Source: an uncultured Candidatus Actinomarina sp. (GTDB taxonomy: Bacteria; Actinomycetota; Acidimicrobiia; Actinomarinales; Actinomarinaceae). Taken from it: 64,000 nucleotides of DNA. Under the pieces are notes generated by a model. The model did not search any database and was not told where the DNA came from. It saw only the letters and a program-made list of their open reading frames with translations. The stretch lies in the NCBI GenBank assembly GCA_902578135.1, contig CACHBU010000001.1:211569-275568 (forward strand), read 5' to 3'. Both the position numbers and the translations under genes were made by a program. How positions within the stretch are numbered: the stretch's first letter is position 1; every line of letters begins with the position of its first letter. Positions 9,268 through 63,357 of the stretch are shown here, piece after piece.

Positions 9268-9353
9268 ATTTTCCTTTCTTACCTTGAGAAAATAAAGAAA
9301 CTTCAAGAATTTATAGAAACTTCATTCCTTCTCTCGAGGACTGTTGTCTTAAC

Positions 9354-9434
9354 AATAATGAAGGCGACCTGACTTATCTTTCGAATTACAGTTGCGGGAC
9401 AGTGTTAGATTTTCACTAACTTCGCTCCATTATT
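9354..9434 (-). promoter_or_regulatory. Cobalamin (B12) riboswitch aptamer, compact form; the expression platform continues to about 9268
   Basis: The minus-strand read is AATAATGGAGCGAAGTTAGTGAAAATCTAACACTGTCCCGCAACTGTAATTCGAAAGATAAGTCAGGTCGCCTTCATTATT. It contains the conserved GTGAAAATC...CCCGCAACTGTAA core and a B12-box-like AAGTCAGGTCGCC. It is closed by P1 AATAATG/CATTATT. Confidence 0.85.
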
Positions 9435-9453
9435 CTTGATAAATAGTAGCAGA

Positions 9454-16079: not shown

Positions 16080-17420
16080 CTAAACACCAACAAACTTTGT
16101 TAAGTTATTGTCTATTTTGTTGTTGAAAATGTTAACTTCTTTTTTAAACAAACTTGAACCTTCGACTTTCTTTATAGAAGAGAGAACCGTTGAGTGAGAT
16201 CTGTTCCCTACGTATAAACCAATTTGGTTTAAGGAGTACTCAGTATGTTTCCTCATCAAATAAATAAACAGGTGCCTAGCGTTGCTTACAAGTTCACTTC
16301 TGTTTTTTGAAAGAACAAGCCTTTCGTCAACCTGATAAACCTCTGAACAGTATTTTAGAATAAACTCCGGAGTCAACTCCATTATCTTGTTGTTGCTATA
16401 CATTGAAACGAGCTCGGATATGTATTTGTTGTTACTTACACCAGTTTGTTTGTTAATAATTAGATTGTTAACAACACCATTTATTTCTCTAAAGCTTTGA
16501 AAGTCCAATGAAAGTAACATTTCTAAATCATTTTTAGAAAACAACAAACCTTCAAATTCAATATTGTTCTTTTTTAAGACTTCAGAAAAAATTTCCCTAT
16601 CAGGTTTTTCTATATCTGTTACTAGTCCGTTTAAAATTCTAGAAACCAAACGATCCGGAAAACCATTAAGTTCTTGGGGTTTCTGGTCGGATGCTAAAAC
16701 CACAGACTTTGAATTGTTTAAAAAATAGTTAATTGTATGAAAAAGCTCTTCAGAAACACCTTTTTTGCCTACAAAAAACTGAATATCATCTACTAATAAA
16801 ATGTCTACAGACCTAATTCTCTTTTTAAAGTTGTCAATATCATTATTTTTTATACCGGAAATATATGACTCAAGAAAAGATTCCGAGTCAATATAGAAAG
16901 AGGAATTACTTGACGACTCAATAGTTTTCAAAAGATGGGTTTTTCCAACACCCGGTTTACCATAAACAAAAAGTGGATTAAACCGTTTACCGGGTGCTAT
17001 AACGACATTTTTAGCTGCTGTTATTGCCAGATTATTACAACCACCAACAAAAAGCTCATCAAAAAAGGACAAATCATAATAAGTCTCAGCAACAATATCA
17101 TCTTGTTTTTTCTCAACTACGGTTGTTTCAACGCTTGACCTTTCATATACACTTGTTTTTTGAAAGTTTTTATCAACAACAAAAACACAATTAGCTTTGC
17201 TGTTATATTTAAGTTGATATACTGACTTAATTTTTGAATAGACCTTTTTCTCAATAGCTGATTTTATAAAATCAGATGAAACAACAATACAAAGGTCGTT
17301 CTCATCATTTATTTCAAAGCCAACCTGATCTAACCAATATCTATCTGTCTTGTTGGTCAAAGACTTTTCTAATAAAGCTTTAAACTCTTCAAGCAATACA
17401 GTATTTTCCCTACTCCCCAT
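16080..17420 (-). CDS. dnaA: Chromosomal replication initiator DnaA
   Basis: Walker A GKPGVGKTHLL, Walker B ILLVDDIQF, and the C-terminal DNA-binding signature RSHSTVLSSIKKV. Confidence 0.96.
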   Translation of the reverse strand: MGSRENTVLLEEFKALLEKSLTNKTDRYWLDQVGFEINDENDLCIVVSSDFIKSAIEKKVYSKIKSVYQLKYNSKANCVFVVDKNFQKTSVYERSSVETTVVEKKQDDIVAETYYDLSFFDELFVGGCNNLAITAAKNVVIAPGKRFNPLFVYGKPGVGKTHLLKTIESSSNSSFYIDSESFLESYISGIKNNDIDNFKKRIRSVDILLVDDIQFFVGKKGVSEELFHTINYFLNNSKSVVLASDQKPQELNGFPDRLVSRILNGLVTDIEKPDREIFSEVLKKNNIEFEGLLFSKNDLEMLLSLDFQSFREINGVVNNLIINKQTGVSNNKYISELVSMYSNNKIMELTPEFILKYCSEVYQVDERLVLSKNRSELVSNARHLFIYLMRKHTEYSLNQIGLYVGNRSHSTVLSSIKKVEGSSLFKKEVNIFNNKIDNNLTKFVGV

Positions 17421-17696
17421 AACCAGATATAAACTTAATTACCTAAACAAGATTTTCATAGAGTGTGAAAAACAGATTAAAATTTCACAAAGTGTTTAAA
17501 ACTTTGAAAAACCTCAATAAACATTGAGTAAAACCCTAAACAATTAATAAACATTAATTATTAATAAAGTTGTTTGTTAAAGCTAGTTAATTTGTTTTTC
17601 GCGAGCTAAAAATCTTTTTCGCGAACTAGTTAAAAATAAAATTTATTTTGTTTTGTTTAATTAATTTCTTCATTTATTCTTACAAACAGGTATTAA
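17421..17696. other. Candidate oriC / divergent dnaA-rpmH control region
   Basis: Gene orientation switches here. The spacer is very AT-rich. There is one perfect DnaA box (TGTGAAAAA at 17464-17472, the complement of TTTTTCACA) and a facing AATTTCACA at 17481-17489. GTGTTTAAAA at 17492-17501 also occurs in the dnaA-dnaN spacer at 16017-16026. Two TTTTTCGCGA repeats lie 20 bp apart. Confidence 0.45.
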
Positions 17697-19917: not shown

Positions 19918-20510
19918 CCTTCGAGCCCCAAATTCCAGATTGGGGTAATGAGTACAAAAACTATCTTGAAAGGCTCAAAAGCTATCATGACTGGTTGTGC
20001 AAAACAGGCATAAACAATGGATTAATAAGTGAAAAGCCCTTGCAGTACATATGGGACGAATTCATAGTCCACTCGTTGTATTTTGGAAAAATACTGCAAA
20101 ATATTAAAAATAATGATAAAAATATATATGACCTAGGCACAGGCGGTGGAATTCCTGGAATTCCTATTGCTTTAACTAACCCAAACAAATTATTCACGCT
20201 TGTCGACATAAGCGAAAGTAGAGCTTTTGAACTTCAAAGGCTAAAAAATATATTAAATTTAGAAAATGTTGAAGTTCTTAATGAGAGTGCTGATGCAGTT
20301 TTAACAGATAACAACACGTACATTTCTCGCTGCTTTATCTCATCAAAAGACGTTTTGAAAAACATAAAACAATTAAAAAACGTAACATACATAGTCTCTT
20401 CAAACGGAGAAAATTTAAACGAAAATAAAGAAAAGTTTCACGTGAAACAAGAAAAATTCACCATTAATTCAACAAACATAAGACACATTGATGTTATAAA
20501 TGTTAAGTGA
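19914..20510 (+). CDS. rsmG: 16S rRNA (guanine527-N7)-methyltransferase
   Basis: SAM-binding motif DLGTGGGIPGIPIAL. Position between jag and parA. Confidence 0.85.
   Translation: MTFEPQIPDWGNEYKNYLERLKSYHDWLCKTGINNGLISEKPLQYIWDEFIVHSLYFGKILQNIKNNDKNIYDLGTGGGIPGIPIALTNPNKLFTLVDISESRAFELQRLKNILNLENVEVLNESADAVLTDNNTYISRCFISSKDVLKNIKQLKNVTYIVSSNGENLNENKEKFHVKQEKFTINSTNIRHIDVINVK
20434..20449. other. parS centromere-like site
   Basis: AGTTTCACGTGAAACA has one mismatch to the TGTTNCACGTGAAACA consensus. It is palindromic, sits inside the 3' end of rsmG and is 58 nt upstream of parA. Confidence 0.8.
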
Positions 20511-61093: not shown

Positions 61094-61789
61094 TTAGTAG
61101 GTTTGCTCCTCTGGATTTTCTATAAAAGACACATTATTAAACTCTTTAAGCCTAAAAAAGTGACCGTCTGATATTTCAGTAGATTTTAACCTTGTATGAC
61201 CTGTGTGTCTTGGTAGGAATTTTTTCCATGTCCACGCATAAAGTGGCATATTTAAAAAATATGACAGTAAAACAGACATTGTTCCAGCGTGTGAAATTAT
61301 CATTAAATTTTCTACAGAATCATTTTTTATTTCAAATTTCTTATCAAATGCATCATCTGTACACACAATTCCTAAGCTTTTTAATTCCTTTTCAAGATTG
61401 GTGATTATATTCTTAGCAAAATCCTGCATATACACTCCATGGTTACTAACAGACCACTCTTCAAACGTTTGACTATTTCTTTTTTCAAAAAAACTCATTA
61501 TCTCATCGGTGCTTTTTCCATACAAAGCAACCTCGTCTTTATCTTCCATTTCTTTTAGCCACTCGAAAGTCTTTATCTCTTTTGCAACTTCATTTTCTTC
61601 AAAGGGTACAAGTGTTTGTGCGGTTCTGTTTAAAGGAGAAACCCAGAGCTGATCGATGCTACCTTTTGGAAACTGGTCAGCAGATTTTTTAGCCTGAACA
61701 CTTCCAAGTTCGGTGAGGCCAGGGTTTCTTGTATATTCATCGTTTAGCATCCATTCAGGCTGTCCATGACGTATAAGTACAATTTCCAT
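61094..61789 (-). CDS. Histidine phosphatase family protein (phosphoglycerate-mutase-like)
   Basis: The N-terminal VLIRHGQPEW (RHG motif) and the later ISHAGTM. Confidence 0.8.
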   Translation of the reverse strand: MEIVLIRHGQPEWMLNDEYTRNPGLTELGSVQAKKSADQFPKGSIDQLWVSPLNRTAQTLVPFEENEVAKEIKTFEWLKEMEDKDEVALYGKSTDEIMSFFEKRNSQTFEEWSVSNHGVYMQDFAKNIITNLEKELKSLGIVCTDDAFDKKFEIKNDSVENLMIISHAGTMSVLLSYFLNMPLYAWTWKKFLPRHTGHTRLKSTEISDGHFFRLKEFNNVSFIENPEEQTY

Positions 61790-61854
61790 ACCAAAACAAT
61801 AGCTAAATTAGGTTATTCTGATACCTAAAGATAAAAAATATAAAGAGAGAAAAA

Positions 61855-62082
61855 TTGATAAGACCTTTTCTATTTGGAGTGACATTAACATATCTAGCCT
61901 TAGATAATATTCTTGATGGGCCGTTTAGAGAATTTCTCAAAACCTACTTTGATCTAAAAGAGTTTGGCACTAACACTAGAGAAGAGTATTTGTATTATCT
62001 ACTTCTTTTTCTTGGACTTTTTCAAATTATAGTTTCAATTAAAGAAGCCTTTAGGTCTGATAACACTTTAGAAGAAGAGTAA
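61855..62082 (+). CDS. Small hypothetical membrane protein
   Basis: 75 aa with a TTG start according to the track and two hydrophobic segments. No recognisable motif. Confidence 0.3.
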   Translation: MIRPFLFGVTLTYLALDNILDGPFREFLKTYFDLKEFGTNTREEYLYYLLLFLGLFQIIVSIKEAFRSDNTLEEE

Positions 62083-62146
62083 ACCTCGCGAAAAATAGAT
62101 TAAAAAATATTTTGCTTAGGGCTTAAAAGAAGCCTATATTTATATA

Positions 62147-62233
62147 ACTATCGGAAAAGAAATCGAAAGATAGAAAAGAAGATAGTATAAAAATCCCGAA
62201 GGGCCGAGAGGTCAATCGGGATTTTTGCTTTTT
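62147..62233 (+). ncRNA. Structured small RNA-like unit, copy 1 (unknown class)
   Basis: Upstream CTCGCGAA (62085), -35 TTGCTT (62112), 17-nt spacer, -10 TATATT (62135). The transcript would contain P1 ACTATC/GATAGT and an ATC-GAAA-GAT hairpin. It ends in a long terminator helix AAAATCCCGA...TCGGGATTTT that encloses GGCC-GAGA-GGTC, followed by a U-tract. Confidence 0.5.
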
Positions 62234-62329
62234 ATAGGTAAACTTTTATAAAATTTATGTATAAAAGTTCGCGAAAAAAACTATCAAAAATTTCTTGCCA
62301 AAAGATAAAATCTACACTAATTTTATATA

Positions 62330-62412
62330 ACTATCAGAAATGAAGTCGCAAGACCTAATAGAAGATAGTTCGAAAATCCCGGAGGGTCGCAAGATCAATC
62401 GGGATTTTCACT
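62330..62412 (+). ncRNA. Structured small RNA-like unit, copy 2 (183 nt downstream of copy 1)
   Basis: Same layout as copy 1: TTCGCGAA (62268), -35 TTGCCA (62295), -10 TAATTT (62318). It has P1 ACTATC/GATAGT and a GTC-GCAA-GAC hairpin. The terminator helix AAAATCCCGG...TCGGGATTTT encloses GGTC-GCAA-GATC. The inner helices differ from copy 1 by compensatory changes. Confidence 0.5.
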
Positions 62413-62589
62413 TTATATAACCTTTTTTCTTGAAAAAAATGCAAAAAGACTCCCTGTGGCTGTAATTTTTTGTTTTATCGCCCTTTTGAAGTGGCTCAAA
62501 GCACGAAAGGAAGTCCTACTCTTATTTTAGTGGTTTACCGTTTATTTTTATCATTTGGGCAAAAATTAGGATGATTTATACTTAAATTC

Positions 62590-63357
62590 ATGAATATTGG
62601 TGCTCATATACCCTCAAAAAACGCAATTGAAGAGATAAAACTCCGAAAAGGTGATACTTTTCAGATATTTATATCCAGTCCACAAATGTGGAAAAGCCCA
62701 AAACCTCGAGAAGATGTCGATGTTTTACAAGATTATGAAGGACCAATATATGTCCACGCACCATATTTAATAAATGTTGCTACTCCAAATAATAAAGTGC
62801 GTCATCCAAGCAGGAAACTATTAAAAGACACATGTAAAGTTGCTGCCAGTTTCGGCGCTAAAGGAGTCATTGTTCACGGAGGGTCTGTTGGAGAAGGTGG
62901 AGACATTGGTGTTGGTTATGACAACTGGAGAAAAGCTATAGAACATGTTGAAGATACTGGAATGCGAGTACTGGTAGAAAATACAGCTGGTGGAAAAAAC
63001 TCAGTTGCCAGATACATGGACTCTATTGAGAGACTTTGGGAAGTAATTGGCCATTTAAACGTCGGGCTCTGTCTAGATACATGTCATACATGGGCAGGAG
63101 GAATTCCTACAGAAAAAGCAGTAAAGGGATTTAAAAAACTTGTTAAGAAGATAGACCTTGTTCATTTCAATGACTCAAAAGATGGCTTTGAAAGCTCAAG
63201 AGATCGTCATGAGAACTTGGGCAAAGGACAGATTCCGAAAGCTGAACTTGAATATGTTATTAAAAACTGTAAAACAGATATTGTTGTTGAAACTCCTGGA
63301 GGACTAGAAGCGCAAAAGAAAGACATTGCGTGGATTAAACGTCGCTTAAAGAAATGA
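62590..63357 (+). CDS. nfo: Deoxyribonuclease IV (AP endonuclease family 2)
   Basis: VHAPYLINVATPN, VIVHGGS, VLVENTAG, CLDTCHTWAGG, HFNDSKD...RDRHENLGKG metal-ligand motifs. Confidence 0.9.
   Translation: MNIGAHIPSKNAIEEIKLRKGDTFQIFISSPQMWKSPKPREDVDVLQDYEGPIYVHAPYLINVATPNNKVRHPSRKLLKDTCKVAASFGAKGVIVHGGSVGEGGDIGVGYDNWRKAIEHVEDTGMRVLVENTAGGKNSVARYMDSIERLWEVIGHLNVGLCLDTCHTWAGGIPTEKAVKGFKKLVKKIDLVHFNDSKDGFESSRDRHENLGKGQIPKAELEYVIKNCKTDIVVETPGGLEAQKKDIAWIKRRLKK

What the first reader, a model, noticed from the sequence alone, without database searches (positions are those of the whole stretch)
62085..62412. Tandem 183-bp duplication encoding two promoter- and terminator-bounded structured RNAs with compensatory base changes
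The two units (62085-62233 and 62268-62412) are collinear. Each has an upstream [CT]TCGCGAA motif. A -35 element follows 27 nt downstream (start to start), and a -10 element follows after a 17-nt spacer. Next comes a conserved TATATAACTATC. Each also has a P1 helix ACTATC/GATAGT and a GNRA-capped mini-hairpin. A long helix AAAATCCCG[AG]...TCGGGATTTT then encloses a second GNRA-capped hairpin, followed by a U-rich tail. The two mini-hairpins differ between copies by compensatory substitutions: ATC-GAAA-GAT versus GTC-GCAA-GAC, and GGCC-GAGA-GGTC versus GGTC-GCAA-GATC. Flanking unpaired sequence has drifted more. This is the signature of selection on RNA structure. No ORF is conserved between the copies. 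I cannot match the fold to any riboswitch or sRNA class I know (I considered preQ1, guanidine-II/III, fluoride, ZTP, glutamine and 6C). The units could be sibling trans-acting sRNAs, or tandem terminator-type riboswitches acting on the downstream nfo-lysA genes.
Basis: seen in the sequence. Interest (0 to 1): 0.7.

Follow-up and report, generated by a model that had tools for sequence, protein, structure and literature searches.

The report
New small-RNA gene pair in Actinomarina
The two adjacent 183-base units are separate genes for about 85-base structured RNAs of an undescribed family, found in one to three copies in nearly all examined genomes of the abundant ocean bacterium Candidatus Actinomarina, where the copies lie at the borders of swappable gene cassettes.

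Summary
Window 62085-62233 and 62268-62412 are two collinear units. Each has a conserved upstream TCGCGAAAAA box, a -35 TTGCnn, a 17-nt spacer, a -10 TAnnTT, an RNA of about 85 nt and a terminator hairpin.

The window is Candidatus Actinomarina. A covariance model built from the two units finds 96 more copies in 47 of 52 related genome loci and 173 copies in 119 marine metagenome contigs. All lie on the strand of the neighbouring genes. None was found in distant Acidimicrobiia loci, in viral contigs or in Rfam 15.

The fold is kept in 96-100% of cells. It has compensatory changes in P1, the mini-hairpin and the terminator stem, and one invariant G·U pair.

These are old paralogues, not a recent duplication. 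In other genomes P450, lipoprotein, GNAT or tdh-kbl genes lie between and after them. Single copies occur in unrelated contexts such as metX-R-exonuclease and nuclease-R-ino1.

The riboswitch reading is not supported. Downstream genes are heterogeneous, no antiterminator is conserved, and neighbouring genes carry their own leaderless-type -10 boxes.

Best reading: sibling small-RNA genes of a new family, trans function unknown, which also serve as recombination anchors. A second conserved element (62446-62530) lies upstream of nfo.

The parts
62085..62095 (+). Upstream box CTCGCGAAAAA of unit 1. It is a candidate activator or UP-like site centred near -58.
   Evidence: 93 of 96 RNA copies in the genome loci carry [CT]TCGCGAAAA at this fixed distance. 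In about 1 Mb of Actinomarina DNA the only other occurrences are two upstream of dnaA.
62112..62140 (+). Promoter of unit 1: -35 TTGCTT (62112-62117), 17-nt spacer, -10 TATATT (62135-62140).
   Evidence: The hexamers are conserved and the spacer sequence is variable across 46 distinct orthologous regions.
62147..62232 (+). RNA 1, about 85 nt. P1 is 62147-52/62181-86. The GNRA mini-hairpin is 62162-71. The terminator hairpin is 62189-62226, followed by the tail UUUUUGCUUUUU.
   Evidence: Fold. CM match of 119.7 bits. Pair counts.
62268..62280 (+). Upstream box TTCGCGAAAAAAA of unit 2.
62295..62323 (+). Promoter of unit 2: -35 TTGCCA (62295-62300), 17-nt spacer, -10 TAATTT (62318-62323).
62330..62414 (+). 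RNA 2, about 85 nt. P1 is 62330-35/62364-69. The GNRA mini-hairpin is 62345-54. The terminator hairpin is 62373-62408, followed by the tail UUUUCACUUU, which has a weaker U-tract.
   Evidence: Fold. CM match of 118.4 bits.
62446..62530 (+). E2, a second conserved non-coding element. It is not part of the repeat. It is single-copy and always lies after the last RNA unit and before the first gene of the (lipoprotein cassettes)-nfo-lysA block.
   Evidence: nhmmer finds exactly one copy in each of 110 sources (the window plus 109 loci). Position map. No Rfam match. Structure unresolved.
62577..62592 (+). Candidate own promoter of nfo: -10 TATACT (62577-62582), 7 nt, then ATG at 62590, a leaderless-type arrangement.
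   Evidence: Read from the sequence. The same arrangement is seen at 10 of 16 distinct genes that follow an RNA unit, against a 6% background.

Best explanation
Each unit is a stand-alone gene for an RNA of about 85 nt.

Transcription starts at about 62147 / 62330 from a sigma-70-type promoter. An invariant upstream TCGCGAAAAA box probably makes that promoter strong or regulated. Transcription stops at an intrinsic terminator.

The RNA has two domains:
- A 5' domain, made of P1 closing a roughly symmetric purine-rich 9x9 internal loop around a C(GNRA)G mini-hairpin.
- A 3' hairpin, made of a 10-bp stem, a 2x2 A/G internal loop, a 4-bp stem with a fixed G·U pair, and a GNRA loop. It doubles as the terminator.

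The two window units are members of two old paralogue types, A and B. They share the 3' hairpin and differ in the internal loop of the 5' domain. This is the pattern of sibling small RNAs: a common scaffold or partner-binding module plus diverged specificity regions.

I infer that the RNAs act in trans as riboregulators. The near-invariant 3' hairpin, homogenised between paralogues, would be bound by a common partner, most likely a protein. The purine-rich loops would give specificity.

As a by-product, the repeated 160-nt units serve as homologous-recombination anchors. Gene cassettes are gained and lost around them, and gene order is reshuffled at them.

Shown: conservation, structure with covariation, promoter and terminator architecture, and independence from neighbouring genes.

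Inferred: actual transcription, trans action, the partner, and the recombination role.
For: 1. Family and distribution. There are 96 CM matches of 69-120 bits in the window plus 47 of 52 Ca. Actinomarina loci. There are none in 27 loci of distant Acidimicrobiia or Mycobacteria. A further 173 copies occur in 119 metagenome contigs.

2. Structure. On 95 distinct sequences, 96.3% of cells are paired, and the mini-hairpin and 3' hairpin are 100% paired. Nine pairs show double-sided changes. 0 of 500 shuffles reach the observed values. Slid controls give 27-52% paired.
- P1 variants: CUAUC/GAUAG, CUAUU/AAUAG, CUAAA/UUUAG, CACUA/UAGUG, ACUUA/UAAGU.
- Mini-hairpin pair: G-C 52, A-U 40, U-A 3.
- Base of the terminator stem: A-U 61, G-C 18, G·U 16.
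- An invariant G·U pair, which would be C·A on the other strand, fixes the strand.
- Tetraloops vary only within GNRA.

3. Transcription unit. Conservation starts sharply at the TCGCGAAAAA box and stops right after the U-tract. The -35 and -10 hexamers are conserved while the spacer drifts. The same architecture is kept in unrelated contexts B and C.

4. Autonomy. Unit 1 is followed by another unit's promoter, by a convergent GNAT gene, or by P450, tdh or lipoprotein genes. Overall, more than 12 different upstream and downstream neighbour families are seen.

5. Downstream genes have their own -10 box 6 nt before the start codon in 10 of 16 distinct junctions, against a 6% background.

6. Concerted evolution of the 3' hairpin. 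The CCCGG..CUGGG variant is present in both copies in 7 of the 8 genomes whose first copy carries it. The window's unit 1 carries type-B ends on a type-A core.

7. Rearrangement junctions c2-R-exo, metY-R-R-nfo and metK-R-tdh occur. 34 of 173 copies lie within 150 nt of a contig end.
Against: - There is no expression data. Neither the promoter nor the terminator was picked up by the generic consensus scan.
- No target, seed or protein partner could be identified. The single-stranded regions are purine-rich, unlike the C-rich anti-Shine-Dalgarno seeds typical of actinobacterial sRNAs (my own knowledge).
- Gaps to downstream same-strand genes are often only about 25-45 nt. Read-through, and hence a cis role, cannot be excluded.
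- The covariation statistics use related sequences and a model-fitted or consensus-derived structure, so they overstate independence.
- Distribution outside the nfo neighbourhood in complete genomes was not surveyed.
Confidence: 0.62

Rival explanations
1. Cis-acting leader, attenuator or riboswitch. The 5' domain senses a ligand or protein and modulates read-through of the 3' terminator into the downstream genes (nfo-lysA, P450, lipoproteins, exonuclease-tilS-hpt-ftsH).
For: - Units are co-oriented with the genes that follow in most junctions.
- Gaps to the next start codon are often 25-47 nt.
- Type-B units, which are always last before the operon in the window's clade, have a weaker U-tract, UUUUCACUUU.
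- The layout is a compact P1-enclosed domain followed by a terminator.
Against: - Downstream genes are functionally unrelated.
- In at least 15 genomes unit 1 is followed only by unit 2's promoter, and in others by a convergent GNAT gene, yet it is equally conserved.
- Each unit in a tandem has its own promoter.
- The terminator hairpin is the most conserved part, the opposite of usual expression platforms.
- Consensus folds of the nascent RNA show no alternative pairing for the terminator's 5' strand.
- Most downstream genes have their own -10 box at leaderless distance.
Confidence: 0.15
2. Primarily a DNA-level element. On this reading it is a repeated recombination or insertion site, or a promoter-terminator insulator, that organises a cassette hotspot. 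The RNA would be incidental.
For: - Copies flank variable cassettes and lie at synteny breakpoints. Hybrid junctions exist. Contigs often break at the copies.
- The 3' part is homogenised between copies.
- tRNA genes play this role in the Actinomarinales glycosylation island (PMC7771536).
Against: - Compensatory substitutions preserve helices on one strand only, with a fixed G·U pair and GNRA-restricted loops.
- The conserved promoter hexamers point to a transcribed product under selection.
- No integrase or recombinase was seen among the neighbouring genes, and no partial copies or target duplications were found.
- Cassettes after the last copy are not separated by copies.
Confidence: 0.1
3. 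A selfish small repeat, MITE-like or REP-like, or a decaying remnant with no function.
For: It is repeated, contains a strong palindrome, and occurs at variable loci.
Against: - There are only 1-3 copies per locus.
- Strand and architecture are fixed, there are no terminal inverted repeats, and positions are orthologous across species with 84-100% identical nfo.
- Purifying selection on structure is seen in a genome with about 97% coding density (PMC7771536).
Confidence: 0.04

Closest known systems
Adjacent sibling sRNA genes such as OmrA/OmrB (E. coli), PrrF1/PrrF2 (Pseudomonas) and AbcR1/AbcR2 (alpha-proteobacteria). This comparison comes from my own knowledge.
   Same: - Two or more paralogous RNA genes of about 80-110 nt lie side by side.
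- Each has its own similarly regulated promoter, with a shared upstream regulator box, and its own intrinsic terminator.
- Parts of the RNA are shared and near-identical, and other parts have diverged.
   Different: - There is no sequence or structural relation to those families.
- The regulator, targets and chaperone are unknown.
- The single-stranded regions are purine-rich rather than anti-SD-like.
- The most conserved module is the terminator hairpin itself.
- The copies are often separated by cassettes.
tRNA genes as insertion hot spots of the Actinomarinales flexible genomic island fGI1 (Lopez-Perez et al. 2020, PMC7771536; bioRxiv 10.64898/2026.04.03.716425).
   Same: Small structured-RNA genes bound regions where cassettes differ between closely related genomes.
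   Different: - No direct repeats of RNA-gene fragments were seen at cassette ends, and no integrases.
- Here full paralogous copies flank the cassettes, which suggests homologous recombination rather than site-specific insertion.
- This locus (nfo region, about 45 kb from dnaA) is not the described island.
Guanidine-II (mini-ykkC) riboswitch.
   Same: Two small hairpins with the same conserved tetraloop and closing pair, joined by a linker, with the second hairpin near or within an expression platform.
   Different: - The loops are GNRA (GCAA, GAAA, GAGA), not ACGR.
- There is no Rfam match.
- There are no guanidine-related genes downstream.
- There is no evidence of switching.
6C RNA of Actinobacteria.
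   Same: A small, widely conserved actinobacterial sRNA made of hairpins plus a terminator.
   Different: 6C is defined by C-rich loops. Here the loops are GNRA and the unpaired regions are A/G-rich. There is no Rfam match.

Membership tests
Any Rfam 15 family | A covariance-model score at or above the family's gathering threshold. | tested here: not met
   The gathering scan of the whole window finds only an AdoCbl riboswitch at 9314-9450. The permissive scan of 61780-62620 gives only E >= 0.05 matches, all far below the gathering scores.
Terminator-type riboswitch | An aptamer consistently upstream of genes of one pathway or function. | tested here: not met
   Downstream neighbours include nfo, P450, three lipoprotein families, tdh-kbl, 5'-3' exonuclease, ino1, a convergent GNAT gene, and another RNA unit.
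Terminator-type riboswitch | A conserved alternative (antiterminator) pairing that competes with the terminator. | tested here: not met
   RNAalifold on alignment A6 truncated before the terminator's 3' strand leaves the 5' strand unpaired. Single-sequence folds give only weak local pairs.
Terminator-type riboswitch | Ligand-dependent structural change or termination. | not testable with these tools
   This needs in-line probing or in vitro transcription.
Sibling trans-acting sRNA genes | An independent promoter for each copy. | tested here: met
   Box, -35, 17-nt spacer and -10 are conserved at fixed distances before every copy, with a variable spacer sequence, including in unrelated genomic contexts. 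This is sequence evidence only.
Sibling trans-acting sRNA genes | An intrinsic terminator ending a short non-coding transcript. | tested here: met
   A G+C-rich hairpin is followed by UUUUUGCUUU or UUUUCACUUU, and is 100% paired in 95 sequences. There is no AUG and no conserved ORF.
Sibling trans-acting sRNA genes | Conservation independent of the flanking genes, with several paralogues per genome. | tested here: met
   There are 1-3 copies per locus and many different neighbours.
Sibling trans-acting sRNA genes | A detected transcript and trans targets or a partner. | not testable with these tools
Guanidine-II (mini-ykkC) | Two hairpins with ACGR tetraloops. | tested here: not met
   The loops are GCAA, GAAA, GAGA, GGAA or GUAA.
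6C RNA | Two hairpin loops, each with runs of C. | tested here: not met
   There are no C-rich loops and no RF01066 match.
Integron-like cassette array (attC sites) | An adjacent integrase and a recombination site at every cassette boundary. | tested here: not met
   No integrase was seen among the genes mapped around the units, of which 10 representatives were checked against Pfam. Consecutive cassettes after the last unit are not separated by units.

The most novel reading that the evidence does not exclude
The RNA genes have two roles. Besides encoding a riboregulator, the 160-nt promoter-RNA-terminator units would be the recombination anchors of a cassette-exchange hotspot, and of chromosome rearrangements, in one of the most streamlined free-living bacteria. 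Cassettes for surface lipoproteins, P450, GNAT and tdh-kbl would be swapped between direct copies, and recombination between copies at different loci would produce the observed hybrid junctions. The shared 3' hairpin would be kept identical by gene conversion. That would be a cassette system built on sRNA genes rather than on tRNA genes or integron sites.
Probability: 0.25. Interest if true: 0.7.

Novelty: new member of a known kind. Interest (0 to 1): 0.55.

Why it matters
Candidatus Actinomarina is among the most abundant and smallest free-living ocean bacteria. It is uncultured, with about 97% coding density and a median intergenic spacer of about 2 bp (PMC7771536).

Keeping one to three non-coding units of about 190 bp, under clear structural selection and with a dedicated promoter box shared only with the dnaA upstream region, implies an important RNA function. 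No regulatory RNA has been described for this lineage: two full-text searches and two genome papers mention none.

The family gives three things:
- a ready covariance model for annotating marine metagenomes and metatranscriptomes;
- a candidate regulon marker, the TCGCGAAAAA box;
- a concrete, testable explanation for a local cassette hotspot and for some of the gene-order shuffling reported between Actinomarina species.

It is still an ordinary kind of object, a small RNA gene family, and its function is unknown.

Tried and rejected
- Rfam, with gathering and permissive thresholds, on the units and on E2: nothing.
- The generic promoter/terminator scan did not list the elements.
- IMG/VR scan with the hairpin pattern: 0 hits, so there is no phage link.
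- Literature searches for Actinomarina small RNAs and for TTCGCGAA: nothing relevant.
- parS hypothesis for the TTCGCGAA box: rejected, because a near-canonical parS is present elsewhere, at 20434-20449.
- A LexA, NrdR or DnaA-box identity of the motif: considered from memory and rejected, because the sequence and symmetry do not fit. This was not tested.
- A link with DNA-repair nucleases (nfo, 5'-3' exonuclease and PD-(D/E)XK adjacent in three contexts): not sustained. Other copies abut glycosyltransferases, metK, P450 and lipoproteins.
- Obligatory read-through into downstream genes: weakened by the start-codon-proximal -10 boxes.
- Antiterminator search: negative.
- Integron-like or partial-copy boundaries: not found.
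- E2 secondary structure: RNAalifold gives a weak consensus. The fold is no better than shuffles (z about +0.7). A hand model (P1 plus hairpin) is 99.7% paired but has almost no covariation, so it remains unresolved.
- Target prediction was not attempted. With A-rich loops in a 33% G+C genome and only 64 kb available, it would not be informative.
- I noticed a resemblance between the top of the 3' hairpin (GGYCGCAAGRUYAA) and 16S rRNA helix 27. This is from memory only and was not tested.

Full report
**What is in the window**

The region between a small membrane-protein ORF (61855-62082) and nfo (62590-63357, Pfam AP_endonuc_2), followed by lysA (Orn_Arg_deC_N), holds two collinear units with a 183-nt period.
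- the [CT]TCGCGAA box;
- a -35 TTGCnn exactly 27 nt downstream;
- a 17-nt spacer;
- a -10 TAnnTT;
- TATATAACTATC;
- P1 ACUAUC/GAUAGU enclosing a 3-bp GNRA mini-hairpin;
- a long hairpin AAAAUCCCGR..UCGGGAUUUU with a 2x2 internal loop and a GNRA-capped 4-bp top;
- a U-rich tail.

Both RNAs fold identically, with z = -5.0. The complementary strand folds less well. The generic promoter/terminator scan did not list these sites, so the promoter call rests on comparative evidence.

**Organism and homologues**

The nfo protein places the window in Candidatus Actinomarina (OCS155, Acidimicrobiia). The best match is SAG AG-447-P23 at 100% identity.

A covariance model built from the two window units gave 96 matches of 69-120 bits. 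These lie in the window and in 47 of 52 Actinomarina loci, all on the nfo strand. It gave none in 27 loci from distant Acidimicrobiia and Mycobacteria. Of the five Actinomarina loci without a match:
- four are contigs cut inside or just before the cassette region;
- one (L040) has the flanking genes fused directly to nfo with no unit between them.

The model finds 173 copies in 119 of them. IMG/VR has none. Rfam 15 has no matching family. Two genome papers on the lineage and the full-text searches mention no such RNA.

**Structure**

I counted pairs on 95 distinct sequences (alignment A6; the model-fitted A4 gives the same picture).
- 96.3% of cells form standard pairs, against 27-52% when partners are slid by 1-3 columns.
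- 9 of 23 pairs show changes on both sides.
- No shuffle of 500 reaches the observed pairing or covariation.

P1 occurs as CUAUC/GAUAG, CUAUU/AAUAG, CUAAA/UUUAG, CACUA/UAGUG, AUUAUC/GAUAAU and, in a divergent lineage, ACUUA/UAAGU.

The outer pair of the mini-hairpin is G-C in 52 sequences, A-U in 40 and U-A in 3. In some variants the hairpin extends to 5-8 bp.

The base of the terminator stem runs A-U, G·U, G-C. One inner pair is an invariant G·U, which would be a C·A mismatch on the other strand. The tetraloops vary only within GNRA. The 2x2 internal loop switches between AG/AA and AA/AG.

These are signatures of selection on an RNA read from the + strand. Two caveats apply. The sequences are related, and the structure was derived from members of the set, so the shuffle counts are not probabilities.

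**Transcription unit**

Upstream alignment of all copies and a column-conservation profile of 46 distinct first copies give the same picture.
- Conservation begins abruptly at the TCGCGAAAAA box.
- It covers the -35 and -10 hexamers, while the 17-nt spacer drifts.
- It runs through the RNA and ends right after UUUUUGCUUU.

The same architecture is retained where the unit sits directly after the metX stop codon (context B) and in the divergent lineage (context C).

In about 1 Mb of Actinomarina DNA the box occurs 95 times. Of these, 93 are before RNA units and 2 lie 20 nt apart upstream of dnaA (17595-17626, minus strand). It is not parS, because a near-canonical parS is present at 20434.

**Not a recent tandem duplication**

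Two paralogue types recur across species.
- Type A: AUCGMAAGAU with loops GGAAAAGAA / AGAAAAGAA.
- Type B: GUCGCAAGAC with loops AGAAAUGAA / CCUAAUAGAA, or AAAAAAGAA / CCGAAAAUGA.

They are adjacent (183-216 nt apart) in the window's clade. In other genomes they are separated by 0.67, 1.2, 1.47, 2.0 or 3.0 kb.

The intervening and following genes are a cytochrome P450, a convergent GNAT acetyltransferase, tdh-kbl, and secreted lipoproteins of three families. Some of the lipoproteins carry NHL repeats.

The 3' hairpin evolves in concert. The CCCGG..CUGGG variant is present in both copies in 7 of the 8 genomes whose first copy carries it, even where the 5' domains remain types A and B. The window's unit 1 has a type-A core but type-B ends (TATATAACUAUC..GAUAGU). 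In most relatives unit 1 begins UAGAACACUAUC. This points to gene conversion between the copies.

**Other contexts**

Single copies occur in several other gene neighbourhoods:
- metK-metY-metX-R-(5'-3' exonuclease)-tilS-hpt-ftsH;
- gdh / PD-(D/E)XK nuclease(-) / small ORF-R-ino1, which holds the divergent RNA;
- next to glycosyltransferase genes.

Hybrid junctions also exist: c2-R-exonuclease, metY-R-R-nfo and metK-R-tdh. In all, more than a dozen different gene families lie on each side, and 34 of 173 metagenomic copies are within 150 nt of a contig end. The units therefore behave as autonomous genes located at mosaic junctions.

**Riboswitch or attenuator reading**

Several observations count against it:
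- The downstream genes are functionally unrelated.
- Unit 1 is often followed only by unit 2's promoter or by a convergent gene, yet it is equally conserved.
- The terminator hairpin is the most conserved part.
- Consensus folding of the nascent RNA shows no competitor for the terminator's 5' strand.
- 10 of 16 distinct genes that directly follow a unit have a TAnnnT hexamer 6 nt (8 nt in one) before the start codon, against a 6% background. This fits leaderless transcripts, which are common in Actinobacteria (my own knowledge). nfo itself has TATACT-N7-ATG.

Some read-through cannot be excluded, and the type-B U-tract is weaker. I therefore keep this rival at about 0.15.

**Mechanism proposed**

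I propose sibling small-RNA genes. A box-dependent promoter gives an RNA of about 85 nt. Its invariant 3' hairpin, which is both terminator and candidate partner-binding module, is shared by the paralogues. The purine-rich, roughly symmetric internal loop of the 5' domain differs between types A and B. The trans function, by protein binding or by base-pairing, is inferred and not shown.

The repeated units probably also act as homologous-recombination anchors for cassette turnover and rearrangement. This is inferred from the flanking pattern, the hybrid junctions, the concerted evolution and the contig breaks.

**Second element (E2)**

The spacer before nfo contains E2 (62446-62530): AAGACUCCC..GUGGCUGUAAUUUUUGUUUUAUC-[variable]-AGUGGCUCAAAGCACGAAAGGAAGUC.
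- It is about 80-95% identical across species and occurs once per locus in 110 sources (the window plus 109 loci).
- It always lies after the last RNA unit, sometimes with P450 or a lipoprotein gene in between. It always lies about 55-60 nt before the first gene of the (lipoprotein cassettes)-nfo-lysA block.
- It has no Rfam match and no better-than-random fold.
- A P1-plus-hairpin model is 99.7% paired but almost invariant, so its structure is unproven.

It may be a leader, a separate RNA or an operator region.

**Verdict**

Its interpretation as structured RNAs under selection is supported. 'Sibling sRNAs' is the best reading, and 'tandem riboswitches on nfo-lysA' is not supported. The family appears undescribed, but it belongs to a familiar kind of element.

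Noticed in passing
window 62446-62530 (+): E2 is a second, single-copy conserved non-coding element of about 85 nt. It lies between the last RNA unit and the first gene of the lipoprotein-nfo-lysA block in 110 sources (the window plus 109 loci). It has no Rfam match. Its flanks are invariant (GACUCCC ... GGAAGUC), its middle segment varies in length, and its structure and function are unresolved.
   Followed up: partly
window 17595-17606 and 17615-17626 (-): Two copies of the G[CT]TCGCGAAAAA box lie 20 nt apart in the rnpA-dnaA intergenic region, upstream of dnaA (16080-17420, -). In about 1 Mb of Actinomarina DNA these are the only occurrences apart from the RNA promoters. The box may be a shared regulator or UP-like site.
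   Followed up: partly
L001-L056 and L081-L200, region between the c2 membrane-protein gene and nfo: A local cassette hotspot. Closely related genomes differ here by presence and order of cytochrome P450, GNAT (convergent, sometimes reduced to fragments), tdh-kbl, an SHMT-like gene, and one to three secreted lipoprotein genes of three families.
   Followed up: partly
window 62577-62592; L012 6069-6098; L017 7074-7101; L096 (context B): Genes following the RNA units usually have a TAnnnT hexamer 6-7 nt before the start codon and no Shine-Dalgarno sequence. This suggests leaderless transcription. It holds at 10 of 16 distinct junctions, against a 6% background.
   Followed up: partly
L040 8236-8679: One Actinomarina-like MAG (XB_MAG278) has the c1-c2 genes abutting nfo directly, with no RNA unit and no E2. 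The RNA must therefore lie elsewhere in that lineage or be absent.
   Followed up: no
L087 706-797, L097 2184-2275, L123 6588-6676, L132 3647-3738: A divergent branch of the RNA family. It has P1 ACUUA/UAAGU and a 5-bp mini-hairpin GAUUC-GCAA-GAAUC, but the same 3' hairpin and the same promoter box. It lies between a PD-(D/E)XK nuclease gene and ino1. Its taxon was not determined.
   Followed up: partly
window 9314-9450 (-): An AdoCbl (cobalamin) riboswitch, and the only Rfam family reaching its gathering score in the window: 63.3 bits.
   Followed up: no
window 20434-20449 (+): A near-canonical parS site, AGTTTCACGTGAAACA, with 1 mismatch. It lies about 3 kb from dnaA.
   Followed up: no
window 62200-62215 and all copies (top of the 3' hairpin): The top of the hairpin, GGYCGCAAGRUYAA, has a C-G closing pair, a G·U as third pair and A-rich flanks. 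From memory it resembles helix 27 (the 900 tetraloop) of 16S rRNA. This is a lead for a protein-mimicry idea only. No rRNA sequence of this organism was available for comparison.
   Followed up: no
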